A stretch of DNA of 64,000 nucleotides from Jatrophihabitantaceae bacterium (GCA_050742975.1 JBOGDQ010000070.1:19889-83888), one strand, 5' to 3'; counted from the first letter of the stretch, positions 5,640 to 63,152 are shown. Made by a program: numbers and translations. Notes: generated by a model not told the origin, from the letters alone.

Positions 5640-8600
5640 ATGGGCTGGCACAACCCCGACGTCACGTGGCGGGAACTGGAGCGGCGGCTGTCCGGCCGGC
5701 CGATCGAGGACCGCGGCCCGGTCTCGCGCAAGCGGGTACCACCACCAGCTCCGTCTACCCGCCGCCGAGTCAAGGCGCCACGCTATGCCGAACTGCATGC
5801 CCACTCGTCGTTCAGCCACCTGGACGGCGCGTCCACCCCGGAGGAGCTGGCCGCGGCCGCCGCCGAACTCGGCCTGTCCGCACTAGCGATCACCGACCAC
5901 GACGGCATGTACGGCGCGCCCCGGTTCGCCGCCGCCGCGGCACAGCAACAACCGCCGCTGCCGACGATCTTCGGCGCCGAGCTCTCCTGCGATCTCCTCC
6001 CACCCGTCACCACAACCGGCCGACTTGTCGGCGCCCGGTCCGCGATGCCCGACCCACCCGGCCGGCACCTGCTCGTGCTCGCCCGCGACCCGACTGGGTA
6101 CGCGAGCCTGTGCCGGGGCATCAGCCGGGCTCAACTGCGTGGCGGCGCCAAGGGTCACCCGGTCTACGACTGGGACGAGTTCGCCGATCTCGCCGACGGT
6201 CACTGGCTGGTGCTGACCGGCTGTCGCAAGGGCCCGGTGCGCCAAGCCCTCGACGTCGGTCAATACGGCACGTTCGCCCTCGATCCCGCCCGCCGGGCGC
6301 TGGCCGAGCTGGTCGACCGGTTCGGCCGCGACAACGTCGCGGTGGAGTTGACCTACGCCCGCGAGCCGCTGGCCGACGAGCGCTACGACGTGCTGGCCCA
6401 GCTGGCCGGCGAAGCCGGCCTGCCGATCGTGGCGACAACCGGCGCGCACTACCACACCCCGGCCCGCCGCCGGCTGGCCACCGCGCTGGCCGCGGTACGA
6501 GCACGCTGCAGCCTGGACGAGCTGGACGGCTGGCTGCCGGCCTGGGCCGACGCCCGGCTGCGGTCAGGAGCCGAGCTGGCCGAGCGATTCGCCCGCTGGC
6601 CCGGCGCGGTCGAGCACGCCGCCCGGCTGGGCGACGAACTCGCCTTCGACCTGCGACTGGTCGCCCCCAACCTGCCGCCGTTCCCCGTCCCGGGGGGATT
6701 CGCCGACGAGATGGCCTACCTGCGCCACCTCACCTACGCCGGTGCCGCCGAGCGGTACGGCACGCCGCTCGACGAGAAGGTCCGTGCTCGGCTCGAACAC
6801 GAGCTGGCTGTCATCGCCGACCGCGACTTTCCCGGCTACTTCCTCGTCGTCTGGGACATCACGAAGTTCTGCCGGGACAACGGCATCCTCTGCCAAGGCC
6901 GCGGCTCGGCGGCCGGCTCGGCAGTCTGCTACGCGCTGGAGGTCACCGCAATCGACCCGGTCGGCTTCGACCTGCTCTTCGAGCGCTTTCTCGCTCCCGA
7001 CCGTACCGAAGCCCCGGACATCGACATTGACATCGAGTCCGGGCAACCGCGAGAGGATGTCATCCAGTACGTCTACCGCAAGCACGGCCGGGAGTACGCC
7101 GCGCAGGTGGCGAACGCGATCACCTACCGCCCCAAGATCGCCGTCCGGGACATCGCCCGCGCGCTGGGCTACTCGCCGGGACAGCAGGACGCGTGGAGCA
7201 AGCAGATCGAGCAGGGTTACTGGACCGATGATGCCGCGCCGAGCACCGGCTGCCCGGACGGCGACATCCCTCCGCTCGTTCGCGAACTGGCCACCGAGCT
7301 GACGGTCACCGGCCAGCCGCGACACCTCGGCATCCACTCCGGTGGCATGGTCATCTGCGACCGGCCGATCATCGACGTCTGCCCGGTCGAGTGGGCCCGG
7401 ATGCCGGACCGCAGCGTGCTGCAGTGGGACAAGGACGACTGCGAGTACGCCGGGCTGGTGAAGTTCGACCTGCTCGGTCTCGGCATGCTCAGCGCGCTGC
7501 GGCAGTGTTTCGAGCTGATCGAGTCCTGGCACGGCGAGCACTACGAACTCGCCACGATCCCGAAGGAGCAGCCGTGTGTCTACGAGATCCTCGGCCGGGC
7601 AGACACCGTGGGGGTGTTCCAGGTCGAGTCCCGAGCCCAGATGCAGGCGCTGCCCCGGCTGCGCCCCAAGAAGTTCTACGAACTGGCGATTCAGGTCGCG
7701 ATGATCCGCCCCGGCCCCATCCAGGGTGGCGCGGTGCATCCGTACATCCGCCGTAAGAACAGCCAAGAAGACATCACCTACCCGCACCCACTGCTGAAAC
7801 CCGCGCTGGAGCGCACCCTCGGTGTGCCGCTGTTCCAGGAGCAGTTGATGGAGATCGCTGTCCACGGTGCCGGCTTCAGCCCGGCCGAGGCCGACCAACT
7901 GCGCCGGGCGATGGGCTCCAAGCGCGGCGTCGAACGCATCGACGCGATGGAGGCGCGGCTGTACGACGGCCTCGCCGACCATGGCATCACCGACGCGGTC
8001 GCCGGCGACATCGTCAACCGGGTCAAGGCCTTCGCCTCGTTCGGGTTCGCGGAGAGCCACGCACTGTCGTTCGCGCTACTCGTCTACGCCTCGGCCTGGC
8101 TGAAGCGGCACTACCCGGCCGCGTTCCTTGCCGCGTTGCTCAACTCCCAGCCGATGGGCTTCTACTCACCGCAGACGCTCGTGCACGACGCCAAGCGACA
8201 CGGCATCGAGGTGCATCGCCCCGACGTCAACCGCTCCGCCACGAGAGCGGCGCTGGAGACGGGCACCGGCTCGCGGCAGTGCGCCTGCGAGCACGGCAAC
8301 GTCATCCAACCTGCGGTACGTCTGGGGCTGTCCGGCGTGCGCACCGTCGACACCGAGGTCGCCGACCGGATCGTCGCCGAACGCGAGGCCCGCGGCCCGT
8401 TCACCTCGATCACCGACCTCGCCCGCCGCGCCGGGGTGTCCGGCGGACAGCTCGAGGCGCTGGCCACCGCAGGGGCGTTCGACGGCCTCGGCCTGCAGCG
8501 CCGGACCGCCCTGTGGATCGCAGGCGGCGCCGCCGACACCGGCCCCGACCAACTCGCCCTGTGTGCCGATCCGGACGTCCCGACGCTGACACCGATGACC

Positions 8601-9008
8601 GAACCCGAACAACTCATCGCCGACATGTGGGCCACGAGCATCACCCCTGACCGCTACCCCACCGCGCTCATCCGCGGCCGGCTCGACGCGCTCGGCGTCA
8701 CCGTCGCCGCGAGGCTGCGCGAGATCCCCGACCGCACCCGAGTCACCGTCGGCGGAGTGGTCACCCACCGACAGCGACCCTCCACCGCCGGCGGCGTCAC
8801 CTTCCTCAACTTGGAAGACGAAACCGGCATGGTCAACGTCATCTGCCCGTCCGCCGTGTGGGACCGGCACCGCCGAATTGCCCGCGACTCCGGCGGCCTG
8901 CTCATCCGTGGCCGGCTCGAACGCGCCGGCGACATCGCCAATGTCCTGGCCGAGCGGATCGCCAAGCTCCCGCTGGGCCTGCGCACCCGCTCCCGCGACT
9001 TCCGCTAG
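5640..9008 (+). CDS. dnaE2: error-prone DNA polymerase III alpha subunit DnaE2
   Basis: 1122 aa. PHP domain start YAELHAHSSFSHLDGAS and pol III alpha core motifs (GLVKFDLLGL, FQVESR), in imuB-dnaE2 synteny. Confidence 0.96.
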   Translation: MGWHNPDVTWRELERRLSGRPIEDRGPVSRKRVPPPAPSTRRRVKAPRYAELHAHSSFSHLDGASTPEELAAAAAELGLSALAITDHDGMYGAPRFAAAAAQQQPPLPTIFGAELSCDLLPPVTTTGRLVGARSAMPDPPGRHLLVLARDPTGYASLCRGISRAQLRGGAKGHPVYDWDEFADLADGHWLVLTGCRKGPVRQALDVGQYGTFALDPARRALAELVDRFGRDNVAVELTYAREPLADERYDVLAQLAGEAGLPIVATTGAHYHTPARRRLATALAAVRARCSLDELDGWLPAWADARLRSGAELAERFARWPGAVEHAARLGDELAFDLRLVAPNLPPFPVPGGFADEMAYLRHLTYAGAAERYGTPLDEKVRARLEHELAVIADRDFPGYFLVVWDITKFCRDNGILCQGRGSAAGSAVCYALEVTAIDPVGFDLLFERFLAPDRTEAPDIDIDIESGQPREDVIQYVYRKHGREYAAQVANAITYRPKIAVRDIARALGYSPGQQDAWSKQIEQGYWTDDAAPSTGCPDGDIPPLVRELATELTVTGQPRHLGIHSGGMVICDRPIIDVCPVEWARMPDRSVLQWDKDDCEYAGLVKFDLLGLGMLSALRQCFELIESWHGEHYELATIPKEQPCVYEILGRADTVGVFQVESRAQMQALPRLRPKKFYELAIQVAMIRPGPIQGGAVHPYIRRKNSQEDITYPHPLLKPALERTLGVPLFQEQLMEIAVHGAGFSPAEADQLRRAMGSKRGVERIDAMEARLYDGLADHGITDAVAGDIVNRVKAFASFGFAESHALSFALLVYASAWLKRHYPAAFLAALLNSQPMGFYSPQTLVHDAKRHGIEVHRPDVNRSATRAALETGTGSRQCACEHGNVIQPAVRLGLSGVRTVDTEVADRIVAEREARGPFTSITDLARRAGVSGGQLEALATAGAFDGLGLQRRTALWIAGGAADTGPDQLALCADPDVPTLTPMTEPEQLIADMWATSITPDRYPTALIRGRLDALGVTVAARLREIPDRTRVTVGGVVTHRQRPSTAGGVTFLNLEDETGMVNVICPSAVWDRHRRIARDSGGLLIRGRLERAGDIANVLAERIAKLPLGLRTRSRDFR

Positions 9009-9037: not shown

Positions 9038-9084
9038 CGTGGGCCCCGTGGGGCTCGAACCCACAACCTACGGATCAAAAGTCC
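9038..9084 (-). repeat. distal att-type repeat: displaced 3' portion of tRNA-Lys (partial, non-functional)
   Basis: Identical to 14287-14333 except 9076 C versus 14325 T. It lacks the 5' half of the tRNA. Confidence 0.88.
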
Positions 9085-9186
9085 TCGGGTCGGCCAGCAT
9101 CACCGCGCGCCAGACAGCCCAAACCCCTGTATTCATGGGACTCCCTCTGACTAGCGCATAGGTGCGTGTCGGTCGCTGTCGCTACC

Positions 9187-9208
9187 GAATGGGTGCCAAA
9201 TGGGTGCC
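9187..9208 (+). repeat. tandem (G/A)AATGGGTGCC 11-mers at the island edge
   Basis: GAATGGGTGCC followed by AAATGGGTGCC. The same motif recurs twice at 14183-14216, near the other island end. Confidence 0.7.
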
Positions 9209-9404
9209 GCGCTGGCGGCACTTCTGGTGTAGGAGCTGCACGGCACGGCTGACGCCTGCCGGGTCTCCGACGATCGAGGGGCCGCAGCTAGGCGGTCGCC
9301 CCATCCCAACGCGGGCGCTCGGCAACACCGACCATGCCGTCGGCATTACGCCGAAGGCGATCTCCATCTTGGTACCCCAGACTTTCCTCCTGGTCCGCGA
9401 ATCC

Positions 9405-10432
9405 TCAACGACGCCAAGGAAGTTCGGGCCGTCCGATGTCCAGGCTTGCTGGCAGGCTGCGGGCGCCACGTGCAGGCAGCGGCGCGGGGCGGGTCCGGCC
9501 GGCCTTGCGCAGCTGCCGGTAGCGCAACGGTTCGCCACCGACGGCCTGGCGTAGCAGCGTGCGGAACAGCAGGCCTCGGCTGCGTGAGTGGCGATGGTTG
9601 AAACGGAACACCCACTCGTCGAAATAGGGCTGCAGATGCTCGGCGCTGACCGAGCCTTGCACGGTGCCCATCAGCCACCGCTTGACCAGCGAGAAGATCC
9701 GATGCACCGCGGGTAGCACCTCGTGCGCGGCCAGCCCGGACGCGGCCACCGACGTTCCAAGGTGACGATAGTTCTCCCGCGTCGCAGCAGGGTAGGCCGA
9801 CCAGCCCTCGGTGATCACTCGCGAACCGGGCTCGACGTTGTCGGCCAAGAACCCGTTCAACTCCTGCGCGCTCGCGTCCGCGATGATCCCGAGACGCGCC
9901 CGGCCGAAGCCGCCCTCGTCGCGCTCCACGGCGCCAGCGAACAGCACTTTCCCTCGCGCTCCACGCCCAGGCATCCCCGCTCAGGGCCGCCGAGAAACGA
10001 CTCGTCGACCTCGACGTCACCGCGCAGCCGATCATGTCCTGGGCGCACCATCACCGACCGGTACCGGTGCAGCGTCGCCCACGCGGTCTGGTATGAGCCG
10101 AACTCCGTCTCCCGCTGCAACTGCATCGCCGAGATCCCGATCTTGTCGCCGACCATGCGTCACCCAGCAGCGAACCACACCGTCAGCGGCGTGCGCGTCT
10201 TGTCGAAGATCGTGCCCGTCGTGGCTGACACCTTCCGCTGGCAGCCGCCGCACTTGTTGTGTCCATCCGCGAGCCGCCAACCGACACCGCTGCCGCAGCC
10301 CGGGCAAACGAACCCATCGCGCCAGCGCAGCCACTCCAGGTAGTCGGTGCACTTCCCGTCCTCATCGAACCAGGCCCGCAGTTGCGCGTACGACCTCGGA
10401 TAGTCGCGCCCAGCAACGATCTTGGACCCCAC
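9405..10432 (-). pseudogene. IS1595-family transposase, inactivated (in-frame TGA plus frameshift)
   Basis: Three ORF pieces (10432-10160, 10156-9857, 9974-9405) together give a typical actinobacterial IS1595 transposase (zinc-ribbon CPGCG...CGGC, then VEVDESFLGG, DDE-type core, FVFRFNHRHSRSRGLLF). TGA lies at 10162-10160 where homologues have Trp. A frame change occurs near 9975. Confidence 0.85.
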
Positions 10433-10624
10433 CGAAGAAGGGTATCAATGGAGACCCCCTTTACGCCGATTAGGCGCCTGGATTAGCCGCTTTGTCTTGT
10501 CTGCAAGCTCGACGTTCTGCGCCGCACTCGCCCTCAGTCCCTTCGTTCCTCCCGGGTGCGCGCGCGGGTCCGGGCCACGCGTTCAGCTCCGCTTCGTAGC
10601 TCAGCCGCACAGAGCGTCGCTCTC

Positions 10625-11671
10625 ATGAGCCGGCCGGCGCTCGTTCAAGTGCACCCGAGGGCTACGGGGCCGAGCTACCCTCCGAGCGTGAGACCTGCGA
10701 CCGTGCCGGTACCTGCCCGCTGCGAACATCTGGCCTACGACGCGCGCGGGTTCCCGATCATCTCCGTCGTATCGAACAACGGCAGCGAGGTGAGCTTCGG
10801 TGCGATCTCGGAGAAACGCAAGCTGGTGTTGGCGACGTTCGACTTGTGCGCAGTCTGCGGCAAACCGTTCCGTGACGAGTTGCGTTGGCAGGTCGCCTTC
10901 GGCGACGAACTGCCTGCCCCCGACGATTCTCCGATCGGCTTCAACGAAGCTCCCGTACACGAGATCTGCGCTTTGCTCGCCGCGCAGGTGTGCCCGTTCG
11001 TCTCCTCCCCCTATGCGCGGCACGGCGACGAGTACCGCAAAGGGCAGCAACGCGAAAAGACGCTACTGCTGGCAGGGTTTGAGCACACCGCAGAGGTCTG
11101 GGGGCACGAATCGGCACTGCAACCGGGCGAGTGGATCCTCAGCTTCGCTATGGACAGGATTGGGCCGGTGCGCCAGCTCACTAGCGCCGAGGACGCGGCC
11201 CGGGCGTATCGCGACGCGCTTGCCGCCGAAGCGCCGCTGGTTCTCGACGACGACGAGCAAGCCATCCTGGACGTGCTCTGCTCCCCCACCCCGGACAACG
11301 AGGACTCCGGCGGCGTCCTGGCCGGTGCGGCCTGGATGATTGGCGCGGCGTTCTGCCCGGACATCGACAGAGTGCAGGGCATGTCCATCTACACCAAGCG
11401 TGATACCTATCTGGGGATAGCGATGGGCTCTCTCATCGAACCCGACAAGCTCGTCGCGTTCGAAAAATCGCGCGACCCGTCCACGGTGGCGGCGATGCGG
11501 TGGTTCCTCCATCACCGCGACCGCCTGCCACCAGTACTCGCCGAATGGAGGACCGCGGCGATGGACGGAATGCACGCCCGAGAGCGGGCGCGTAATCGCC
11601 GACCCGATCCGGCCACTGCGGCACGACGTCGCGCCGCGGAGGTAGCCCGACGCAGGAAGAAGCGCAGCTGA
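10625..11671 (+). CDS. hypothetical Cys-rich protein (348 aa), island cargo
   Basis: ORF with normal composition. It has a CAVCG...HEIC...CP cluster suggesting a Zn-binding N-terminal domain and a basic C-terminal tail. Start chosen at ATG 10625. Confidence 0.55.
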   Translation: MSRPALVQVHPRATGPSYPPSVRPATVPVPARCEHLAYDARGFPIISVVSNNGSEVSFGAISEKRKLVLATFDLCAVCGKPFRDELRWQVAFGDELPAPDDSPIGFNEAPVHEICALLAAQVCPFVSSPYARHGDEYRKGQQREKTLLLAGFEHTAEVWGHESALQPGEWILSFAMDRIGPVRQLTSAEDAARAYRDALAAEAPLVLDDDEQAILDVLCSPTPDNEDSGGVLAGAAWMIGAAFCPDIDRVQGMSIYTKRDTYLGIAMGSLIEPDKLVAFEKSRDPSTVAAMRWFLHHRDRLPPVLAEWRTAAMDGMHARERARNRRPDPATAARRRAAEVARRRKKRS

Positions 11672-11942
11672 CGCAGCACCGCCCGGGCCAGCCGCACTGT
11701 GCTCGAGCAAGGCTCGGTCTTGCCGTGCCGTGTACACAATCGTCCCATCTGCGCGATGGTTGGCGACCAGGACAGCGACGGCGAGCCACGCAGACGGCTC
11801 TGGCGTGTCTTCGATGCCCGGGACCTGACACCGATGCGGTATGGCATGTGATCATTTGCGCCTGACGGGGCGGGTTGGCATCGTTGACAGCGGCTGGTCG
11901 CGCTTGTGCGCTGGTGGCGTCTGCGTTGGCGGTGGGCGGCTA

Positions 11943-12803
11943 TCACTCAGTTCGGCGAGCTGCGACTGCGGTGAGTAGGTCGGCTGATAGTGCTGCGCTT
12001 GCCTGTGCGGCGATTTCGGGTTCGCCGACGCCCTGTTCGGTGCGCGCGGCCATCTGTGAGCCGAGCGCTTCGGCGCCGTCTGCGAACAGTTCTTGCAGGT
12101 AGGTGAGCGCTTGGGCTGTGATCTCGCCGGCCAGTTCGTCGTCGAGCAGGCGTATCAGGGTCTCGGCGAGTTGGTCGGTGCTAATGGCGACCAGCAAGCG
12201 GTAGATGTCGTGGGCGTCCTTGTCCAGCAGACGGTCTGGATTCGTGCGCCGCTCGGCGATCTTGTGGAGTTTCGCGATGAGCAGCGCGGCCGGTCCGGCG
12301 ACCTTGGCGGTGAGGTGGCGCTGATCGCGGGGCGACAATGCTGTGATCGGCATTTCGTGGTGGTCGACTACGGCGGCTTCCAGACCGACGGCGCGGCGCA
12401 TTGCCCGTTTGCCGTGTGGCGGATGGATCACGCTGCGTCGGCTATTTCCGCCGGCGATCGCTTCGGGGACCATCAGGTCGACCGGGATCCCGTTCGGGCT
12501 CATCCAGGCGCCCGGCTGCCCGGCGATCGGGTCGAGGAAGAACCCGGCGCGCTCCATCGCCGCGTCGATCAGCGGGTCTTGCCGTAGGGCTCGCACATCG
12601 ACGGCGAGGTCGCTGTCTTTGGTGGTTTCGGCGACGGCGATCGGTGCCGCGCCGGTGTGCAGGTACACGGCTTGGGCGCCGATGACGATAACGGAGTCGC
12701 GATGCTCGGCCAGGGCGGTGAGTGCGTCCAGCAGCACCGATCGGGCGCGTACGAACAGGTTGTCACTGTTGCCAGCGGTCAACGTTGGCCTCCATCCAGT
12801 CAA
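11943..12803 (-). CDS. nucleotidyltransferase-fold protein (AbiEii/GSU2403-like candidate toxin)
   Basis: N-terminal VIVIGAQAVYLH...TKDSDLAVD fits the NTase G[SA]-x(n)-DxD pattern. It lies immediately downstream of, and overlapping, an AbiEi-like gene. Confidence 0.65.
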   Translation of the reverse strand: MTGWRPTLTAGNSDNLFVRARSVLLDALTALAEHRDSVIVIGAQAVYLHTGAAPIAVAETTKDSDLAVDVRALRQDPLIDAAMERAGFFLDPIAGQPGAWMSPNGIPVDLMVPEAIAGGNSRRSVIHPPHGKRAMRRAVGLEAAVVDHHEMPITALSPRDQRHLTAKVAGPAALLIAKLHKIAERRTNPDRLLDKDAHDIYRLLVAISTDQLAETLIRLLDDELAGEITAQALTYLQELFADGAEALGSQMAARTEQGVGEPEIAAQASAALSADLLTAVAARRTE

Positions 12804-13881
12804 GAAGTGCCTCGCCTTCGGCCGGGTTACGTCCAGGGCCGGTGATCAGGTCGACGGCGGCCTGACTCGGCGCCACCGTCACGACCCCCTCGAGCGTGTC
12901 TGCGCGGTCATAGACCACCTCGTAGGCGGGCTGGGCCAGCAGCACGTTCCCTCCGCTGTCCACCGGTCGCAGATCTAGCTGGTTGGCGAGTTGCGCTGAG
13001 TCGTCGCAGTAGATCATCGCAGCTCGGGCCGGAGCGTAGGGCGCCCAGTTCTGAGCGGCCAACGAGCCGGTCACGGCGTAGCGCAGCCCATTCTGGTTGG
13101 GCAGTTCGGCTAGCCCGCTCGATAGGACCGGCAGTCCGCGCGGGGCCAGGAAGTTGGTGACGGCGTGGGTGCGGAGGAACCCGTAGTCCTGGGACCAGCG
13201 GCGCAATAACTCCACCCACCGCACCTGCTTGATCGGACCGCGGACGGCTCGCTCCAGCACGGCCTGTTCGGCGAGGAAGTCCACCACCCGGTAGGTCGGA
13301 CCGGTAGAGGCGCCGGACAACTCCACCAAGCGCGGCACGGAGTACGGCGGTGCGTAGTCGGCCAGCGCCCGCACCACCCGCGCCGCCGGCTCGCCGGTCA
13401 GATTGCCCTTCGGTCGTCCCGGCCCCCGCCACGGGTCCCTGGTTGCGCCCACGTCCCGCACGAACAGTGCCGGTCGATCCAGCGCTACGCGCAGATTTCC
13501 GGTCGCGTCACAGTAGGCGACGTTGCGCTCGGTCAGCCAGCGCTGCAGCGGCGTCGACAGGTATCGTGACGCGATCAGAGGCAGCGCGCCCGGTGTGCCG
13601 CGCCGTGCCGGGAAGGTCGCCGCGATGTAGCCATTGAGCTGCTCGAGCATGCCCGGAAGATCCCGGGTGACCAGGCTGCTCTTCACCTCGACAACCAACA
13701 CCGTAGCCGGACCCTGCGGCGGAACCAGAGAGAGGACTGCATCCGCACGTCGCCGGTCCATAGGCCCGTCGTACGGCTCCAGGCGCCACCCCTGCGGGAT
13801 CCGGGCCCGGATCTGCTCAAGCGCCGCGCCCAGGACATCCCGCTCACGCGACAGAGGTGCTGGCGCCGCGGCCACGTCCAT
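12763..13881 (-). CDS. AbiEi-like regulator/antitoxin with extra N-terminal PD-(D/E)xK-like segment
   Basis: 372 aa. ADAVLSL-x13-VVEVKSS resembles a D...ExK nuclease motif. The central segment looks like a winged HTH (EPAARVVRALADYAPPYSVPRLVELSGASTGPTYRVVDFL). The C-terminal part resembles AbiEi C-domains (recalled from memory, not searched). Confidence 0.55.
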   Translation of the reverse strand: MDVAAAPAPLSRERDVLGAALEQIRARIPQGWRLEPYDGPMDRRRADAVLSLVPPQGPATVLVVEVKSSLVTRDLPGMLEQLNGYIAATFPARRGTPGALPLIASRYLSTPLQRWLTERNVAYCDATGNLRVALDRPALFVRDVGATRDPWRGPGRPKGNLTGEPAARVVRALADYAPPYSVPRLVELSGASTGPTYRVVDFLAEQAVLERAVRGPIKQVRWVELLRRWSQDYGFLRTHAVTNFLAPRGLPVLSSGLAELPNQNGLRYAVTGSLAAQNWAPYAPARAAMIYCDDSAQLANQLDLRPVDSGGNVLLAQPAYEVVYDRADTLEGVVTVAPSQAAVDLITGPGRNPAEGEALLDWMEANVDRWQQ

Positions 13882-14182
13882 CGCAGATCCCCCTTGTCTC
13901 GTTCACCTACAGTCGTATTCCTGTAATGCTAACACTCCGTTGTCAGCGGAGGCTAGATATTCCCAGAAAATTGGACGGCAGATGACCGGGAGGGGGCCCC
14001 GGCACACGGTGACGAAAGGGTGCAGCCCGAGACGGCCGGCGTGTCGTGGTCCGAGCTCCGATCCGTCCAGGAGCTTCCTGCCGGCAGCCCGTCGGTTTGT
14101 CAGGCACAAGCGTCTGATCCGTCAAGCTGCGGAATTTGTCCGCAGAACATCTGCCCATCGACGCTTGCCGGGACACATCGAC

Positions 14183-14216
14183 AAATGGGTGCCAGACGAC
14201 GGAAATGGGTGCCAGA
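14183..14216 (+). repeat. two AAATGGGTGCCAGA 14-mers spaced 20 bp, tRNA-proximal island edge
   Basis: Copies at 14183-14196 and 14203-14216. They share the core with the repeats at 9187-9208. Confidence 0.7.
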
Positions 14217-14288
14217 AGCCGCTGCGTCGACCATGTCGTTGGCCGCGCAAAACCCGTTAATCACCTCGTATATAAGGGATTCATGCCG

Positions 14289-14361
14289 TGGGCCCCGTGG
14301 GGCTCGAACCCACAACCTACGGATTAAAAGTCCGCAGCTCTGCCAATTGAGCTAGAGGCCC
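14289..14361 (-). tRNA. tRNA-Lys (anticodon UUU)
   Basis: The reverse complement GGGCCTCTAGCTCAATTGGCAGAGCTGCGGACTTTTAATCCGTAGGTTGTGGGTTCGAGCCCCACGGGGCCCA folds as a cloverleaf with a 7-bp acceptor stem, anticodon loop CTTTTAA and T-loop GGTTCGAGCC. CCA is not encoded. Confidence 0.95.
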
Positions 14362-23950: not shown

Positions 23951-24748
23951 CTAGCTGCGACGCTGGGCGCGGGCCTCGGTCGTGGCGGGGTGGACGGCGA
24001 CCAGCCCGAGCTTGAGCCGGTCGCCGCAGACCCGCGCCAGCTCGTCGTACGCGTCCTGGCCGAGCAGCGCGACCAGCTCGGCAGCGTAGGACAGGTACAT
24101 CGCCTCGCCACCGACGTGCGCCTCGGGCGAGGACGTGCAGTACCAGTCCAGGTCGTGGCCACCCTCGCCCCAGCTGCGGCGGTCGAACTCGGCGACGGTG
24201 GACTGCAGGATCCGGGTGCCATCCGGCCGATCCACCCACTCCTGCTCGCGGCGCACCGGCAGCTGCCAGCACACCTCGGGCTTGGTCTCCAGCGGGTTCA
24301 CGCCGTTCTGCAACGCGAGCGCGTGCAGCGCGCAGCCGATCCCACCGGCGAAGCCCTCACGGTTGGCGAAGATGCACGCACCGTCGACGACCCGGGTCTT
24401 CTTGCGCAGCTCGCCGTCGAGCTCCTCGCGCACGAAGACGTCCAGCTTCTTCCGGTCCGCGCGGACGGCGTGATCGCGCAGCTGCCACAGCTCAGGCGTC
24501 AGTTCGTTGACGAACGCCCGCACCCGCTTCTCGTCGGCCCGGTCGGAGAAGTACGCGCCGTGGTTGCAGCACCCGGTGCTGCCCTGCCCGGCGAGGGTTC
24601 CGTGGCAGCCGCGTCCGAAGATGCACGTCCACCGCGAGCACAGCCAGGTGAGGTCGGCCCGGATCAGGTGCGCGGGATCGGCCGGGTCGTAGAACTCGAT
24701 CCACTCACGCGGGAAGTCGAGCGACACTTCATCGTTGAGGGCAGGCAC
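23951..24748 (-). CDS. conserved actinobacterial Cys-rich protein (Rv0495c-like)
   Basis: Well-composed ORF with [14 protein letters not shown]...GCCNHGAYF...DGACIFAN...GCALH clusters. It is divergent from ppx, as in mycobacteria. Start at GTG 24748; the rest of the 605-aa listed ORF is antisense to ppx. Confidence 0.75.
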
Positions 24749-24775
24749 ACCGATGAGGGTAATAGTCTGAAGGTC

Positions 24776-25708
24776 ATGCGACTCGGTGTGCTGGACGTCG
24801 GTTCCAACACCGTCCACCTGCTCGTGGTCGACGCACACCGCGGCGCCGAGCCGACACCGCAGCTCTCGCACAAGAGCGAGCTGTGCCTGTCCGAGCTGAT
24901 CGACAAGCGCGGCGACCTCGCGAAGGGCGGTGCCGACGCACTGGTCGAGGCCGTGCGCAGTGCGCGGAAGGAGGCCGACGAGCTCGACTGCGACGAGCTG
25001 ATCGCGTTCGCGACGTCGGCGGTGCGCGACGCCCGCAACAGCGCCGAGGTCCTCGCGCGGGTGGCGAGGGAGAGCGGCGTCGAGCTCGAGGTACTGCCCG
25101 GCGAGGACGAGGCGCGGCTGACGTTCCTCGCGGTACGCCGCTGGTACGGCTGGAGCGCGGGCAACCTGATCTGCGTGGACATCGGCGGCGGATCGCTCGA
25201 ACTCGGGGCCGGAAGTGACGAGGACCCGGACGTCGCCGTCTCGCTCCCGCTCGGCTCCGCGCGACTGACCCGCGACTGGTTCACGGCCGACCCCGCGAGC
25301 AAGGACGAGATCGCGAGGCTGCGCGCGTACGTCGACGCGCAGCTCGCCGAGCCTGCGGCCAAGTTGCTGTCCGGCGGCAACCCCGACCGCGTCGTCGCGA
25401 CCTCCAAGACGTTCCGCACGCTGGCCCGGCTCGCCGGTGCGGCGCCCAGCTCGGCCGGCCCGCGTGCCCGTCGGCCGCTGAGCCGGATCGGGCTGGGTCA
25501 GGTGAGCGCGTTCATCTCGCGGATGGCGTCCGGGGACCTGGCAGAGCTGGACGGCGTGAGCGAGGGGCGGGCCCACCAGGTGCTCGCCGGCTCGGTCGTC
25601 GCCGCCGCCACCATGGACGCCCTCGGCGTGGACGAGCTCGAGCTCTGCCCGTGGGCGCTGCGCGAGGGTGTGATCCTGCGCCGCCTGGACTGGCTCACCG
25701 GCACGTGA
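24776..25708 (+). CDS. ppx: Ppx/GppA-family phosphatase (exopolyphosphatase)
   Basis: [19 protein letters not shown]...DIGGGSLEL are ASKHA-fold Ppx/GppA motifs. Confidence 0.88.
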
Positions 25709-25736
25709 TCGAACTGCAGCGGCTAGCCTCCCGGCC

Positions 25737-26579
25737 ATGACCGACACCTCGCCGCCCCCGCGCGTCAAGGTGGGCCTGTCGACGGCGTCGGTGTATCCCG
25801 AGGGAACCGCGGTGGCCTTCGAGCTGGCGGCCCGGCTGGGCTATGACGGCGTCGAGGTGATGGTCTGGACCGACCCGACCAGCCAGGACCCGTACGCACT
25901 GCTCCGCCTGTCGCAGCATTACCAGGTACCGATCCTCGCGATCCACGCCCCGTGCCTGATCATCACCCAGCGCGTCTGGACGACCGATCCGTGGGTCAAG
26001 CTGCAGAAGGCACAGTTCGCGGCCGAGCTGCTCGGCGCGCAGACGGTGGTGGTGCACCCGCCGTTCCGCTGGCAGCGCGAGTACGCCCGGCACTTCCGCT
26101 CCGGCATCGAGAAGCTGGCCGACGAGACGCCGGTTCGCTTCGCGGTGGAGAACATGTTCCCGCTGCGGGTGCGGGGCCGCGAGGTGTCGGCGTACCAGCC
26201 GACGTGGGACGTCGCGTCCGGCGGCACTTCTGACACCGAGCCGTACCGCGACTACACGCTCGACCTGTCCCACTCGGCCGTGTCCCAGTCGGACGCGCTG
26301 GCGATGCTGACCGCGATGGGGGACCGGCTGCGCCACCTGCACCTCGCCGACGGCACCGGCCTGACCAAGGACGAGCACCTGATCCCCGGCCGTGGCGACC
26401 AGCCGTGCGTCGAGGTCCTGCAGACTCTGGCCAGCCGTAGGTTCGACGGGCACGTGATCGTCGAGGTGAACACCCGCAAGGCGCTGGACCGCGCCGAACG
26501 CGAGGCCGACCTGGCGGAGGCACTAGCGTTCTGCCGCCTCCACCTGGCCGCCTCGCCGGCTGCTCAGGCCGGCACGTAG
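25737..26579 (+). CDS. sugar phosphate isomerase/epimerase (xylose isomerase-like TIM barrel)
   Basis: GYDGVEV...HAP...VVHPP...ENM...HLAD pattern of the AP-endonuclease-2/TIM-barrel family. Confidence 0.8.
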
Positions 26580-59941: not shown

Positions 59942-60082
59942 GGTGGATCGAGGGTAGGGGATCGCGCCGGGTTCGGCAGACCTTTACGTCCTGTTTACGG
60001 GCTTTCGCGACGTCGCGAGGGACGGGTGCGGCAGCCTGACCTCAGGGCGGGTCGGTACTGGGCCGCACGTACGCTGAACGGC

Positions 60083-61228
60083 ATGGCGCTGACCGAATCC
60101 CGCAAGGCCGAGCTGACCGAGAAGGTCGCCAACCGCGAACGGCTCACCCGCCGGGACGGCGAGGACCTGTACGACTCCGACGACCTGGCCTGGCTCGGTG
60201 GCCTGGCCCACGACGTCCGCACCCGCAAGAACGGCAGCGTCGTCTTCTTCAACGTGAACCGCCACCTGAACCTGACGAACGTCTGCACCGCGTCCTGCGC
60301 GTATTGCAGCTTCCAGCGCAAGCCCGGGCAGAAGGACGCGTACACGATGCGCGTCGAGGAGGCCGTCGAGCTGGCGTCGGCGATGCAGGGCGACGGCCTG
60401 ACCGAGCTGCACATCGTGAACGGCCTGCACCCGACGCTGCCGTGGAAGTACTACCCGCGCGTGCTGCGTGAGCTCAAGGCCGAGCTGCCGGACGTCGCGC
60501 TCAAGTGCTTCACCGCGACCGAGATCCACTTCTTCGAGGAGATCAGCGGGCTGTCCGCGAGCGAGATCCTGGACGAGCTGATCGACGCCGGCCTGGAGTC
60601 GCTGACCGGCGGCGGTGCGGAGATCTTCGACTGGGACGTGCGCAAGCAGATCGTCGACCACAAGACGCACTGGGAGGACTGGTCGCGCATCCACCGCCTC
60701 GCGCACGGCAAGGGTCTGCAGACCCCGGCGACGATGCTGTACGGGCACATCGAGGAGCCGCGCCACCGCGTCGACCACGTCCTGCGGCTGCGCGAGTTGC
60801 AGGACGAGACCGGCGGCTTCCAGGTGTTCATCCCGCTGCGCTTCCACAACGACAACAACCGACTGTCGCACCTGCCGATGGCCCAGCCCGCCGACGTGCT
60901 CAAGACGTTCGCGGTGTCCCGCCTGATGCTCGACAACTTCCCGCACGTCAAGGTGTTCTGGGTGATGCACGGGCTCTCGACCTCCCAGCTCGCGCTGAAC
61001 TACGGTGCGGACGACATGGACGGATCGGTGGTCGAATACAAGATCACCCACGACGCCGACCACTTCGGCACGCCGGACAAGCTGACCCGCGAGAACCTGC
61101 TGGAGCTGATCCGCGACGCCGGGTTCACGCCCACCGAGCGCAACACGCGGTACGAGATCGTCCGCGAGTACGACGGTCCGGTGAGCCTGGCCGAGCGGCG
61201 CGCCGAACCGCAGGCGGTCTGGGCGTGA
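60083..61228 (+). CDS. radical SAM menaquinone (futalosine pathway) enzyme, MqnE/MqnC family
   Basis: CTASCAYC CxxxCxxC cluster, 381 aa. Its position next to UbiD/UbiA/UbiX/AsnC-like genes mirrors SCO4490-4494, where the radical SAM is aminofutalosine synthase (from memory). Confidence 0.82.
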   Translation: MALTESRKAELTEKVANRERLTRRDGEDLYDSDDLAWLGGLAHDVRTRKNGSVVFFNVNRHLNLTNVCTASCAYCSFQRKPGQKDAYTMRVEEAVELASAMQGDGLTELHIVNGLHPTLPWKYYPRVLRELKAELPDVALKCFTATEIHFFEEISGLSASEILDELIDAGLESLTGGGAEIFDWDVRKQIVDHKTHWEDWSRIHRLAHGKGLQTPATMLYGHIEEPRHRVDHVLRLRELQDETGGFQVFIPLRFHNDNNRLSHLPMAQPADVLKTFAVSRLMLDNFPHVKVFWVMHGLSTSQLALNYGADDMDGSVVEYKITHDADHFGTPDKLTRENLLELIRDAGFTPTERNTRYEIVREYDGPVSLAERRAEPQAVWA

Positions 61229-61290
61229 AGACGCCCCGCGACGTTGCTCGCAGGGATGGCACCCTCGCGGGGGCCCAGAAGGAGTCGTCG

Positions 61291-61584
61291 ATGAAGTACC
61301 AGCGCAGTGGCCCCAGCTTCGGGAGCTGGATGGGTTCGATGTGGCTCTACACGATCCTGCGCTTCGCCCTGTTCTTCGCGCTCTGGGGGCTGATGCTGCT
61401 GCTCGGCCTGCACGGTTTCGTCGCAGCGCTCGTCGCGCTCGCGCTGTCGATCCCGCTCGCGCTGGTGCTGCTCGCCGTGCCGCGCGCCCGGTTCGCCGCG
61501 ACCGTCGAGCAGCGGATGAACGCCCATCGCGACGAGCGGGCCCAGCTGGACGCCGAACTCGATCCCGAGCACCGCGACGACTGA
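61291..61584 (+). CDS. DUF4229-like small membrane protein
   Basis: 97 aa with two TMs (LYTILRFALFFALWGLMLLLGL, FVAALVALALSIPLALVLL). GAAGGAG Shine-Dalgarno upstream. Confidence 0.7.
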   Translation: MKYQRSGPSFGSWMGSMWLYTILRFALFFALWGLMLLLGLHGFVAALVALALSIPLALVLLAVPRARFAATVEQRMNAHRDERAQLDAELDPEHRDD

Positions 61585-61586
61585 CC

Positions 61587-61664
61587 GTCCTGATCACGTT
61601 TTCCCCGCGCGTCACCGGTTCGCCGACTCGCAACCGGTGCCCAGCGGGGAAACGTGATCAGGAC
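61587..61664. terminator. 78-nt compound hairpin (21-bp outer stem, 8-bp inner stem) overlapping the RT stop codon; candidate bidirectional terminator or structured RNA
   Basis: GTCCTGATCACGTTTTCCCCGC...CACCGGTT-N11-AACCGGTG...GCGGGGAAACGTGATCAGGAC. It lies between convergent genes. Confidence 0.55.
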
Positions 61665-62974
61665 CAGTCGATCCCGTCGAACGATGCGCGCAGCCGTGCG
61701 CCGAAGGCCGGGTCCAGGCTGTTGGCCCACGACATCCGCCCGAGCAGGCGCTCGCGGAAGTCCTCCGCGCCCCGCGACTGGCCGCGCCAACCGTGCACGG
61801 CGCAGTTGTGCACGATCGCGCGCAGGTTGTCGCGCTCGCGCCGTGGCAGGCTCGGGTGGTCGTTGACCACGGCGCCGAGCGCCTGCTGGCGTCCGGACGA
61901 GCCGAGCACCACGGTCTTGCGCTCGTTGCAGCGAAAGCCCTCCTCGCGCACGATCTGCCCGACGAGCTCGACGAACCGGCTGCGCGCACCACGAAGCGAC
62001 GGGCCACCGCTGAACGTCAGGTCGTCGACGTAGCGGGTGTAGCTCGCGCCGAACGCGCGCGCAAGCCCGGTGAGCCGCCGGTCGAGCGAGAACGCGACCA
62101 GGTTGGCGACGGCGGGGGACGTCGGCGCGCCCTGCGGCAGGTGTGGTGTAGCAAGCCGGCGGCCGAGTTGCCGGTGCGCGTCGCGATCACGCGGAACCGG
62201 GACGTCGCGCCACACGCCCAGCGGAACCGTCGTCGTCATGAGGCCGGTCAACGTGTGCGCGACCGCCTCCGGCAGTCCGGCCGTCCGCAGCACACCCCAT
62301 ACCCGCCCGGCCGCGATCGACGCGAAGAACGTCTCGAGGTCGACGCGGATCACGACCGCCGACCCGGCGTGCGGCTGCACCGCGGTGCGCACCGAGCGGC
62401 CGCGGACGCAGCCGTGCGCCGCGTCGTGGAGGGGGATCGGGTCCAACACGTGACGCAGCAGCCGGCGCTGGATCTCCTTCATCCGCGGCTTCGGGGCGGC
62501 CACCAGGCGCACGCCGTCGCGCTTCGGCAGCGCCCGCCAGCGGTAGTGCCGCAATGGTGCGGCGACCGTCCGCTCGAGCCCGCGCACGTCGGCGAACCAG
62601 TCCAGCTCGCCCGCGTCGAGGTCGAGCAGGCGGGCGAGCGCCGACAGGTCGTCGAGCCGGGCGATCAGACACGGTGACGGCAGGGCGGTGGTCGCGACCG
62701 GCTCCCAGTGCACGATCCGCGGCGAGCGCCGGTGCTGCCAGGCCAGCGCCCACGCCGGCCGGGTCTGCAGGTAGGCAGCGAGCTCGCGCGGTCGGTCGGT
62801 GGGCGGGTCGCGGTAGGCGTCGAGCACCTGGTCGATGAGCGCGCCCACCCAGCGCGGGGCGCGGCGCTGCCCCAGCGCGGCGGTGAGCCGCGAGTGCATG
62901 AGCGGCCGCGTCCACGGTCCGGCGAGCAGCGCGGTAGCCACACCGGCTGCGACCTGCTCGTGGCGAGCGCTCAT
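61658..62974 (-). CDS. retron-like reverse transcriptase with ~170-aa N-terminal extension
   Basis: RT motifs VIRVDLETFFASI, LPQGAPTSPAVANL, YTRYVDDLTFSG, NERKT, ALGAVVN. Start is ATG 62974 (in-frame alternatives at 63064, 63073, 63145). Confidence 0.88.
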   Translation of the reverse strand: MSARHEQVAAGVATALLAGPWTRPLMHSRLTAALGQRRAPRWVGALIDQVLDAYRDPPTDRPRELAAYLQTRPAWALAWQHRRSPRIVHWEPVATTALPSPCLIARLDDLSALARLLDLDAGELDWFADVRGLERTVAAPLRHYRWRALPKRDGVRLVAAPKPRMKEIQRRLLRHVLDPIPLHDAAHGCVRGRSVRTAVQPHAGSAVVIRVDLETFFASIAAGRVWGVLRTAGLPEAVAHTLTGLMTTTVPLGVWRDVPVPRDRDAHRQLGRRLATPHLPQGAPTSPAVANLVAFSLDRRLTGLARAFGASYTRYVDDLTFSGGPSLRGARSRFVELVGQIVREEGFRCNERKTVVLGSSGRQQALGAVVNDHPSLPRRERDNLRAIVHNCAVHGWRGQSRGAEDFRERLLGRMSWANSLDPAFGARLRASFDGIDWS

Positions 62975-63152
62975 GCCGACGGCGCCGAAAGCGCAGCAGT
63001 GAGCAGCGTGCGGCCGACTCTCATGCGGGGGGCGGCGGCAGCCAACCTCTGCCGTGCGCGCCATGAGCTTCATGACGTGAAGGCGATGGCGTGCGACGCG
63101 ATGTCCCGGCGCGATGATCGAGATCCAGGCGACGGCGACACTCACCGGTCGC

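What the first reader, a model, noticed from the sequence alone, without database searches (positions are those of the whole stretch)
9038..14333. Integrase-less 5.2-kb island at tRNA-Lys bounded by 47-bp direct repeats
Positions 9038-9084 repeat positions 14287-14333 (the 3' portion of tRNA-Lys(UUU), through the anticodon stem) with one mismatch (9076 C versus 14325 T, tRNA position 37). This is the classic signature of site-specific integration into a tRNA 3' end. No tyrosine or serine recombinase ORF lies between the repeats. The cargo is a decayed IS1595 transposase, an orphan Cys-rich protein and an AbiE-like two-gene module. The island sits directly downstream of dnaE2. It is probably a fixed remnant of a small defence island.
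Basis: seen in the sequence. Interest (0 to 1): 0.7.

Follow-up and report, generated by a model that had tools for sequence, protein, structure and literature searches.

The report
Integrase-less genomic island at tRNA-Lys
A 5.2-kb piece of foreign DNA sits in the end of a lysine tRNA gene of an uncultured soil actinobacterium, still framed by its two attachment sites but with no recombinase of its own, which is an ordinary and already described kind of decayed or hitch-hiking mobile element.

Summary
9038-9084 repeats 14287-14333, the 3' part of tRNA-Lys(UUU) from position 29 to the end, with one mismatch at tRNA position 37.

The interval has the lowest G+C of any 5.2-kb stretch in the window: 66.7% against 71.1 ± 1.1%. 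Its GC3 is 0.77-0.81, against 0.86-0.93 in the flanking genes. I found no recombinase domain in it.

New here:
- The motif AATGGGTGCCA occurs four times in the 64 kb. It forms one pair 73-93 bp inside one att core and one pair 104-115 bp inside the other, all on the same strand. This is the layout of integrase arm-type sites in an attP.
- The IS1595 copy (9355-10460) has both inverted repeats and a 9-bp target duplication. It was a simple insertion, so it did not delete an integrase.
- Without the IS the island is about 4.1 kb, with no room for an integrase.

- The Cys-rich protein is not an orphan. It has about 100 actinobacterial homologues.
- The "AbiE-like" pair is an AbiEi_2-like wHTH regulator plus an NTP_transf_8 nucleotidyltransferase. 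That link holds only at family and fold level, and neither protein matches any PADLOC model.

Best reading: a CIME-like, non-autonomous or degraded integrative island. No empty-site allele could be found. This is a new member of a known kind, of low to moderate interest.

The parts
9038..9084 (-). Displaced 3' fragment of tRNA-Lys(UUU), tRNA positions 29-74 plus 1 nt. This is the distal att core. It has G instead of A at position 37 (9076).
9085..9345 (.). Non-coding arm inside the distal att core. It carries two tandem AATGGGTGCCA motifs, at 9188-9198 and 9199-9209 (the second with 1 mismatch). These are candidate arm-type integrase sites.
   Evidence: no Pfam hit in any ORF here
9346..9354 (.). 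Left copy of the 9-bp target-site duplication TTACGCCGA made by the IS1595 insertion.
   Evidence: the 9-mer occurs only twice in the window
9355..10460 (-). IS1595-family insertion sequence, 1106 bp, with imperfect terminal inverted repeats (about 9355-9377 and about 10440-10460). The transposase is a pseudogene with one in-frame TGA at 10160-10162 and one frameshift near 9974.
   Evidence: Pfam Zn_ribbon_IS1595 and DDE_Tnp_IS1595; NF033547; ends; frames. The NCBI protein accessions seen run 73 (dnaE2), 74, 75, 77 (SoxR), leaving one for the three ORFs between the NTase gene and soxR. That one probably belongs to the regulator, so the transposase probably has none (inferred).
10461..10469 (.). 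Right copy of the 9-bp target-site duplication TTACGCCGA.
10688..11671 (+). Conserved actinobacterial Cys-rich protein of unknown function, 327 aa (MGH8960474.1). Invariant residues are CxxC at 54 and 57, H91, C94 and C102. Some homologues end in a SEC-C motif.
11943..12782 (-). Nucleotidyltransferase-fold protein, 279 aa, of the NTP_transf_8 family. The catalytic-type residues G35, D56, D58 and D102 are invariant. It is the putative toxin or effector of the two-gene module.
   Evidence: AF2 pLDDT 89.5; Foldseek top hits are the H. pylori NTase 4ok0 (prob 0.97) and MenT1 8rr5 (prob 0.92)
12763..13881 (-). AbiEi_2-like regulator, 372 aa, overlapping the NTase gene by 20 nt. It has a NucS/EndoMS-like N-terminal domain, a winged helix-turn-helix, and a TM1012-like C-terminal domain.
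13935..13951 (-). Inverted repeat CTCCG-N7-CGGAG beside a -10-like TAGCAT box. It is the likely operator and promoter of the two-gene module, and the same arrangement occurs in homologous loci elsewhere.
   Evidence: L208, L209, L210, L082
13952..14286 (.). Non-coding arm next to the intact tRNA. It carries two AATGGGTGCCA motifs, at 14184-14194 and 14204-14214.
   Evidence: no Pfam hit in any ORF here
14288..14361 (-). Intact tRNA-Lys(UUU). The proximal att core is 14287-14333.

Best explanation
The interval 9085-14286 is a small genomic island. It entered by tyrosine-integrase recombination between an element-borne attP and the anticodon-stem-to-3'-end segment of tRNA-Lys(UUU). That event regenerated the tRNA and displaced its old 3' part to 9038-9084.

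The island now has no recombinase. It keeps both att cores and, on the inner side of each, a pair of AATGGGTGCCA motifs placed where arm-type integrase sites lie in an attP. It is therefore a CIME-like element, meaning att-bounded and non-autonomous. Either it is the stripped-down remnant of a larger integrative element, or it is a hitch-hiker that always depended on an integrase supplied in trans.

Its cargo is three genes. Two form a widely mobile module of a wHTH regulator and a nucleotidyltransferase. This most likely works as a toxin-antitoxin or addiction cassette, autoregulated through the inverted repeat at 13935-13951. The third gene encodes a conserved Cys-rich protein. An IS1595 copy later inserted into non-coding DNA and then decayed.

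The single att mismatch lies in the anticodon loop. For this class of site that is the presumed strand-exchange overlap. Together with the missing integrase, it makes the present copy probably immobile.

Shown: the repeats, the composition, the absence of a recombinase, the IS anatomy, the motif distribution and the family links.
Inferred: the integrase class, the arm-site function, the toxin-antitoxin mechanism and the immobility.
For: - Repeat pair and tRNA.
- The identity block starts in the anticodon stem and runs to the 3' end. This is the commonest island-in-tDNA geometry: 3760 of 3919 Islander islands have a 3' fragment and 2083 have an anticodon-centred site (PMC4383910).
- Composition: the island is 66.7% G+C, against 71.1 ± 1.1% (minimum 68.3%) for 194 other 5.2-kb windows. 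GC3 is 0.77-0.81 against 0.86-0.93.
- AATGGGTGCCA occurs 4 times against 0.35 expected (0 of 100 shuffles reach 4). All four are on the + strand and all lie 73-125 bp inside the two cores.
- The motif is absent from the promoter regions of homologous regulator genes in four other loci, so it belongs to the island ends and not to the module.
- No recombinase domain in any island gene or in ten ORFs of the two arms. None in 20 further ORFs of the window.
- The IS is flanked by the unique 9-bp duplication TTACGCCGA, and no ORF is restored when the IS is removed.
- The module is a mobile cassette. It has 1737 and 2576 homologues, 40 plasmid records hold a relative of the regulator, and a 93.5% identical copy lies next to a different gene in L214.
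- CIME definition: PMC6323972. An actinobacterial example is TR1 of Streptomyces scabiei (PMC8369830).
Against: - No empty-site allele, excised circle or related element with an integrase was found, so acquisition by integration rests on anatomy and composition only.
- The arm-site reading of the motif is by position alone. Tandem AAATGGGTGCC units also occur in unrelated metagenome contigs, so the motif is not specific to one integrase family.
- The compositional shift is modest, about 4.4 points.
- The cargo proteins themselves miss every Pfam, NCBIfam and PADLOC threshold, so the toxin-antitoxin reading is by family-level and fold-level analogy.
- Fold matches are weak (TM 0.3-0.45, E about 4e-3).
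Confidence: 0.72

Rival explanations
1. The island is an active non-autonomous element, a true CIME or integrase parasite. A tyrosine integrase encoded elsewhere in the genome, or by an incoming element that targets the same tRNA-Lys site, binds the conserved arm motifs. It then excises and reintegrates the island, or carries it along after tandem accretion.
For: - Both att cores are 98% identical, and both arms keep paired motifs at attP-like distances.
- Neither arm is truncated, and the IS inserted cleanly.
- Without the IS the island is only about 4.1 kb, and no integrase remnant is present, which fits an element that never carried one.
- CIMEs mobilised in cis are documented (PMC6323972; PMC8369830).
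Against: - No cognate integrase was seen in the 64-kb window.
- No related element with an integrase was found through the motif, nor through viral contigs. In the homologous loci read, the only recombinase seen is the serine recombinase in L209.
- The one mismatch sits in the anticodon loop, the presumed overlap region, where heterology is expected to inhibit tyrosine recombinases (inference from established knowledge).
- There is no evidence of polymorphic presence or absence.
Confidence: 0.18
2. The 47-bp copy did not arise by site-specific integration. It is a local partial duplication of the tRNA 3' half, or a relic of an older tRNA gene. On this view the genes between are ordinary variable chromosomal genes.
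For: - No integrase is present and no empty site is known.
- The dnaE2 neighbourhood is not syntenic among family-level relatives, so the region is rearrangement-prone anyway.
- Island genes are present at 93-99.6% identity in related strains.
Against: - The identity block begins exactly at the anticodon stem and ends one base past the tRNA 3' end, as expected for attB/attP identity.
- The interval bounded by the repeats coincides with the lowest-G+C stretch and with low-GC3 genes.
- Paired motifs occur only at the two inner ends.
- The cargo families are mobilome-associated.
Confidence: 0.05
3. The AATGGGTGCCA pairs are operators for a cargo-encoded regulator, for example the wHTH protein. 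They would control the two convergent transcription units and would not be integrase arm sites. Each pair lies about 300 bp upstream of a start codon once the IS is removed.
For: The geometry is symmetric. The distance from 14184 to the start at 13881 is 303 bp. The distance from 9209 to the start of the Cys-rich gene, with the IS removed, is about 300-360 bp.
Against: - Homologous regulator genes in four other contexts keep a different conserved inverted repeat within 80 bp of the start codon and have no AATGGGTGCCA-like sequence.
- In L214 the module occurs without the Cys-rich gene.
Confidence: 0.1

Closest known systems
Cis-mobilizable elements (CIMEs), e.g. CIME(L3catR3) of Streptococcus thermophilus and TR1 of Streptomyces scabiei
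   Same: It is bounded by attL and attR derived from a site-specific integration. It has no integration or transfer genes. It carries only accessory cargo. An actinobacterial precedent exists (PMC6323972; PMC8369830).
   Different: No partner ICE or AICE and no internal att site are seen, and mobilisation is untested. The island is much smaller (4.1 kb without the IS) than TR1 (20 kb). The target is a tRNA gene, whereas TR integrates at an aviX1 site (PMC8369830).
tDNA genomic islands as catalogued by Islander (anticodon-centred 'A' sites)
   Same: A regenerated tRNA plus a displaced 3' fragment mark the ends. The identity block runs from the anticodon stem to the 3' end (PMC4383910).
   Different: This island has no integrase gene. 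Typical members have one, as I recall of Islander's filters; I did not check this in the paper.
AbiE / MenAT type IV toxin-antitoxin systems (AbiEi + AbiEii/DUF1814 nucleotidyltransferase)
   Same: It is a two-gene operon with overlapping genes, a wHTH regulator upstream of an NTase-fold protein with an intact GxxA...DxD motif, an inverted-repeat operator at the promoter, and a mobile-element association. The best fold matches include the H. pylori putative nucleotidyltransferase 4ok0, which I recall as the DUF1814-type protein JHP933, and MenT1.
   Different: The NTase belongs to NTP_transf_8 (PF12281), not AbiEii (PF08843). The regulator is AbiEi_2-like only at family level and has an extra NucS-like N-terminal domain. 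Neither protein matches any PADLOC model, so none of its AbiE models either. No phenotype is known.
attP sites of heterobivalent tyrosine integrases (lambda, mycobacteriophage L5, pSAM2)
   Same: If the island ends are joined, a core is flanked at about -100 and +100 bp by paired short direct repeats, within about 275 bp. This resembles core-plus-arm-type-site architecture. The comparison with those named systems is from my own knowledge.
   Different: No integrase is present to assign the sites to, and binding is untested.

Membership tests
CIME (cis-mobilizable element) | Flanked by attL and attR direct repeats from site-specific recombination | tested here: met
   46 of 47 bp identity between 9038-9084 and 14287-14333, corresponding to the tRNA-Lys 3' part
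CIME (cis-mobilizable element) | Lacks integration/excision and conjugation genes | tested here: met
   No recombinase, relaxase or FtsK/Tra domain in any island ORF. The only Pfam hits are to the IS1595 transposase. Three cargo proteins were negative in NCBIfam and PADLOC.
CIME (cis-mobilizable element) | att sites still recognised by a cognate integrase, with mobilisation by accretion with an ICE | not testable with these tools
   This needs the complete genome or population reads, or an experiment. The paired arm motifs are preserved, but there is one mismatch in the anticodon loop.
tDNA-integrated genomic island (Islander type) | Intact tDNA plus displaced tDNA fragment in direct orientation bounding the element | tested here: met
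tDNA-integrated genomic island (Islander type) | Integrase gene inside the element | tested here: not met
tDNA-integrated genomic island (Islander type) | Foreign composition, or absence from related genomes | tested here: inconclusive
   Composition is met. The absence test is impossible, because relatives with dnaE2 at 70% identity or less lack synteny, and strains at 93-99.6% identity also carry island genes.
AbiE type IV toxin-antitoxin / abortive infection system | AbiEii toxin of the DUF1814/PF08843 nucleotidyltransferase family | tested here: not met
   No PF08843 hit. The family matches PF12281 NTP_transf_8 in 20 of 24 members. There is no PADLOC hit. The only resemblance is at fold level, to 4ok0 and MenT1.
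AbiE type IV toxin-antitoxin / abortive infection system | AbiEi-type wHTH antitoxin/regulator encoded immediately upstream | tested here: inconclusive
   The window protein has no hit. 13 of 22 homologues hit PF09952 AbiEi_2, best E 1.4e-7. The model shows a wHTH. The genes overlap by 20 nt.
AbiE type IV toxin-antitoxin / abortive infection system | Toxicity neutralised by the partner; phage defence | not testable with these tools
   Experimental.
IS1595 family insertion sequence | DDE_Tnp_IS1595 transposase with N-terminal zinc ribbon, terminal inverted repeats and a target-site duplication of about 8 bp | tested here: met
   Pfam and NCBIfam hits. Inverted repeats and the 9-bp duplication TTACGCCGA. 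The transposase is inactivated by a stop and a frameshift.

The most novel reading that the evidence does not exclude
The island is a functional miniature 'integrase parasite'. It would be a roughly 4-kb att-bounded cassette that never encoded a recombinase. It would keep a complete attP-type architecture (core plus paired arm sites on both sides) and be moved between tRNA-Lys sites by a helper element's integrase. In doing so it would spread an uncharacterised AbiEi_2/NTP_transf_8 toxin-antitoxin or defence module among actinobacteria.
Probability: 0.15. Interest if true: 0.5.

Novelty: new member of a known kind. Interest (0 to 1): 0.25.

Why it matters
Integrase-less, att-bounded islands are probably under-counted, because detection pipelines commonly key on an integrase gene. 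A clean small example helps calibrate such searches. This one has both cores, both putative arm-site pairs and a datable later IS insertion. It also gives a concrete sequence motif to look for next to candidate helper integrases.

The cargo points to a very large family pair that is essentially unstudied: an AbiEi_2-like regulator and an NTP_transf_8 nucleotidyltransferase, each with thousands of homologues, the regulator also on plasmids. It behaves like a mobile toxin-antitoxin or defence cassette.

None of this changes current understanding. It is a well-documented instance of a known phenomenon.

Tried and rejected
- **Empty-site search.** I scanned GTDB representative genomes with DnaE2. 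The best relatives are 60-70% identical Jatrophihabitans-type MAGs. None of 22 has a tRNA within 10 kb of dnaE2, and none shares the downstream genes. The comparison is uninformative.
- **Closer strains.** I looked for them through exact-protein look-ups.
  - The window's own assembly is not indexed.
  - L081 (99.56%) covers only 11362-14077.
  - L212 and L213 (95.3% and 97.7%) stop inside the tRNA gene at 14339 and 14334. This is probably graph tangling at a conserved tRNA, so they reveal neither an occupied nor an empty site.
- **Related elements through the motif pair.** The viral scan gave one chance hit. The metagenome scan gave at least 120 hits, mostly unrelated 11-bp tandem repeats and none beside a tRNA-Lys core. 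L193 has the repeat upstream of a tRNA-Ser, with no integrase-sized ORF recognisable in the first 6 kb (not run through Pfam).
- **Integrase remnants.** A Pfam scan at E up to 10 of ten ORFs in 9151-9554 and 13634-14355 found nothing. blastn of both arms against phages matched only the tRNA part. MT838127.1 is a bacterial fragment with a tRNA-Lys and no integrase-like ORF among those of 150 aa or more (read by eye, not scanned).
- **IS-mediated deletion of the integrase.** Rejected, because the target duplication is intact.
- **Prophage remnant.** No relative of the Cys-rich protein or the regulator was found in IMG/VR.
- **PDB sequence-profile searches.** Nothing significant for the three cargo families.
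- **IS ends by comparison with plasmid copies.** The hits were too distant.
- **Rfam.** Only the tRNA was found.


Full report
**Observation**

The window holds a single tRNA gene, tRNA-Lys(UUU), at 14288-14361 on the minus strand (ARAGORN; Rfam RF00005 at 69 bits). Positions 9038-9084 repeat 14287-14333 at 46 of 47 bases. The only difference is 9076 C against 14325 T. A 26-nt core of the repeat occurs exactly twice and never in shuffled sequence. A sensitive blastn search finds no third tRNA fragment in the 64 kb.

In tRNA coordinates the repeat covers positions 29-74 plus one base beyond the 3' end. It therefore starts in the 5' strand of the anticodon stem. The mismatch is at position 37, which is A in the intact gene and G in the fragment.

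**Source and surroundings**

Exact-sequence look-ups identify the source as an NCBI MAG named "Jatrophihabitantaceae bacterium", on a contig of 85,484 bp. The accessions are:
- dnaE2: MGH8960473.1
- the Cys-rich protein: MGH8960474.1
- the nucleotidyltransferase: MGH8960475.1
- SoxR: MGH8960477.1.

The left flank is a GGDEF/EAL protein, DUF4383, an imuB-like gene and dnaE2 (5640-9008; NF004225, 1400 bits). The dnaE2 stop lies 29 bp before the tRNA fragment.

The right flank starts with soxR, an SDR, a queA-like gene, marR and murB. Beyond these lie translated ORFs that read like core actinobacterial genes (gpm, senX3/regX3, proC, hem genes, ccs genes, ubiD/ubiX). I assigned those names by eye from the translations. 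Only some of them were checked against Pfam. None of 20 further ORFs tested carries a recombinase domain.

**Is the interval foreign?**

The G+C of 9085-14286 is 66.7%. For 194 other 5.2-kb windows the mean is 71.1%, the standard deviation 1.1 and the minimum 68.3%, so this is the lowest stretch in the window. Third-position G+C of the island genes is 0.77-0.81, against 0.86-0.93 for flanking genes. None of the three cargo genes passes a GC3 filter that recovers nearly all host genes. The boundaries of the compositional dip coincide with the repeats.

**Anatomy of the island, from the tRNA inwards**

1. A 335-bp non-coding arm (13952-14286).
2. An operator-like inverted repeat, CTCCG-N7-CGGAG, at 13935-13951 beside a TAGCAT box.
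3. A 372-aa gene (13881 to 12763). It overlaps by 20 nt a 279-aa gene (12782 to 11943).
4. A convergent 327-aa gene (10688-11671).
5. An IS1595-family element (9355-10460).
6. A 261-bp non-coding arm (9085-9345).
7. The tRNA fragment.

**The IS**

The transposase carries Zn_ribbon_IS1595 and DDE_Tnp_IS1595 and NF033547. It is broken by one in-frame TGA and one frameshift. The protein accessions seen leave only one number for the three ORFs between the NTase gene and soxR. That number most likely belongs to the 372-aa regulator, so the transposase probably has no protein record. This is inferred, not looked up.

Imperfect terminal inverted repeats (AGGCGATCTCCAT… and …ATGGAGACCCCCT) are directly flanked by TTACGCCGA. 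This 9-mer occurs only at 9346-9354 and 10461-10469 in the whole window. It is a target-site duplication, so the IS arrived by simple transposition into non-coding DNA and caused no adjacent deletion. Removing it in silico restores no ORF. The pre-IS island was about 4.1 kb and fully accounted for, with no room for an integrase gene of about 1.1 kb.

Ten ORFs covering both arms give no Pfam hit even at E up to 10. blastn of the arms against phage genomes matches only the tRNA part.

**A new feature: paired motifs at both ends**

AATGGGTGCCA, allowing one mismatch, occurs four times in the window against 0.35 expected. None of 100 shuffles reaches four. The 9-mer ATGGGTGCC occurs only at these four places on either strand.

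The four copies form two tandem pairs. One is at 14184 and 14204, ending 93 and 73 bp from the proximal core. The other is at 9188 and 9199, starting 104 and 115 bp from the distal core. All are on the same strand.

If the ends are joined as in an excised circle, the result is a segment of about 275 bp with a 47-bp core flanked by paired repeats. This is the layout of attP sites of heterobivalent tyrosine integrases such as lambda, L5 and pSAM2. That comparison is from my own knowledge.

The motif is not part of the regulator module. Homologous regulator genes in four other contexts (L208, L209, L210, L082) share the CTCCG…CGGAG / -10 arrangement within 80 bp of the start codon, but have no AATGGGTGCCA-like sequence. 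I therefore read the pairs as arm-type integrase sites. This is an inference from position only. Similar 11-bp tandem units exist in unrelated metagenome contigs, so the motif alone does not identify an integrase.

**Cargo: the two-gene module**

The 372-aa and 279-aa proteins have no Pfam, NCBIfam or PADLOC hit themselves. They do belong to very large families, with 1737 and 2576 homologues at E ≤ 0.001, mainly actinobacterial. Scanning family members gives AbiEi_2 (PF09952) in 13 of 22 and NTP_transf_8 (PF12281) in 20 of 24.

For the 279-aa protein:
- The AlphaFold model has pLDDT 89.5.
- It shows a nucleotidyltransferase fold.
- Its best PDB neighbours are the H. pylori putative NTase 4ok0 (prob 0.97) and the M. 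tuberculosis toxin MenT1 (prob 0.92), with low TM-scores.
- G35, D56, D58 and D102 are invariant in the family, so the catalytic-type motif is intact.

For the 372-aa protein:
- The model has pLDDT 82.
- It shows a NucS/EndoMS-like N-terminal domain, a winged helix and a TM1012-like C-terminal domain.

The pair behaves as a cassette:
- 40 plasmid records hold a relative of the 372-aa regulator.
- In L209 it is next to a large serine recombinase and is split by an ISL3.
- In L214 a copy 93.5% identical at DNA level is followed, 30 bp after the stop, by a different gene resembling a serine hydrolase (that resemblance is judged by eye from the translated C-terminus).

"AbiE-like" is thus a fair analogy for how the module probably works: an autoregulated regulator plus an NTase toxin. 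It is not a membership, because the NTase is not of the AbiEii/DUF1814 family. A defence function is untested.

**Cargo: the Cys-rich protein**

This protein is not an orphan. It has 101 homologues in Pilimelia, Glycomyces, Amycolatopsis, Nocardia, Streptomyces and others. CxxC, HxxC and a further Cys are invariant. Seven of 22 sampled homologues add a SEC-C motif. Their contexts are variable regions; one lies beside a Gabija-like pair. The function is unknown.

**Comparative evidence**

- The best GTDB representatives have DnaE2 at 60-70% identity and share neither a tRNA nor the downstream genes.
- Closer strains exist in metagenomes. L081 is 99.56% identical over 11362-14077. L214 is 93.5% identical over the module. 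L212 and L213 are 95.3% and 97.7% identical over the right flank.
- No contig spans a junction, and the right-flank contigs end inside the tRNA gene.
- Island genes are therefore present in strains about as diverged as the flanks. This fits some residence time, but linkage is not shown.
- No relatives of the cargo were found in IMG/VR, which argues against a prophage remnant.

**Mechanism**

I conclude that a tyrosine-integrase element inserted at the anticodon-centred site of tRNA-Lys. This is the commonest tDNA sublocation: 2083 of 3919 Islander islands are of this type, and 3760 have a 3' fragment (PMC4383910).

What remains is an att-bounded element without a recombinase. [quoted passage not shown] There is an actinobacterial precedent in TR1 of Streptomyces scabiei (PMC8369830).

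The data cannot tell whether the island lost its integrase by a clean deletion or by att-att recombination in a tandem array, or whether it never had one.

The single mismatch lies in the anticodon loop. For this class of site that is the presumed 7-bp overlap, where heterology is expected to block strand exchange. With no integrase in view, I consider the present copy most likely immobile. I keep about 0.15-0.2 for trans- or cis-mobilisation by a helper.

**Verdict**

This is a new member of a known kind. It is a tidy and well-resolved example, but not surprising to a specialist. Interest is 0.25.

Noticed in passing
window 61658-63145 (-): A reverse transcriptase of about 495 aa (Pfam RVT_1). 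In PADLOC it scores 541 bits on RT_other and 514 bits on the retron 'RT_outgroup' model. Rfam at gathering thresholds gives no hit here, so no group II intron or retron RNA family was detected. A 549-aa ORF (59984-61633, -) lies directly downstream and was not examined.
   Followed up: partly
window 13935-13951; L208, L209, L210, L082: An inverted repeat, CTCCG-N7-CGGAG, sits next to a -10-like box within 80 bp of the start of the AbiEi_2-like gene. Similar stem-and-box arrangements occur upstream of homologous genes in four unrelated contexts. It is probably the autoregulatory operator of this uncharacterised module.
   Followed up: partly
L193 2297-2329: Three to four tandem AAATGGGTGCC units lie about 55 bp upstream of a tRNA-Ser(UGA) in an unrelated contig of 65.7% G+C. 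The unit is the same as the island-end motif. I found no explanation, and no integrase-sized ORF is recognisable in the first 6 kb (not run through Pfam).
   Followed up: partly
L209 5521-10996: A homologous regulator/NTase module (76% DNA identity) has its NTase gene split by an ISL3 transposase. A large serine recombinase of 566 aa follows about 400 bp downstream.
   Followed up: no
L214 1934-2316: A copy of the two-gene module, 93.5% identical, from metagenome run SRR28232439 is followed by a different gene instead of the Cys-rich gene. That gene resembles a serine hydrolase by eye. Homology to the window ends 30 bp after the NTase stop.
   Followed up: partly
L086 1-5271: In Glycomyces xiaoerkulensis a homologue of the Cys-rich protein lies about 4.7 kb from a Gabija-like pair (AAA_15/AAA_21 ATPase plus UvrD helicase) that is interrupted by an IS21-type element. 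Two uncharacterised genes lie between them.
   Followed up: no
L081 (GCA_050701555.1, contig JBOGCW010000171.1): A second NCBI MAG, labelled 'Mycobacterium sp.', holds a 2718-bp contig 99.56% identical to window 11362-14077. This suggests the same or a sister population binned under a different name.
   Followed up: partly
window 23951-25840 (-): A 629-aa ORF with strong GC3 support has no Pfam hit (at E ≤ 1e-5) and no PADLOC hit (at E ≤ 0.001).
   Followed up: no
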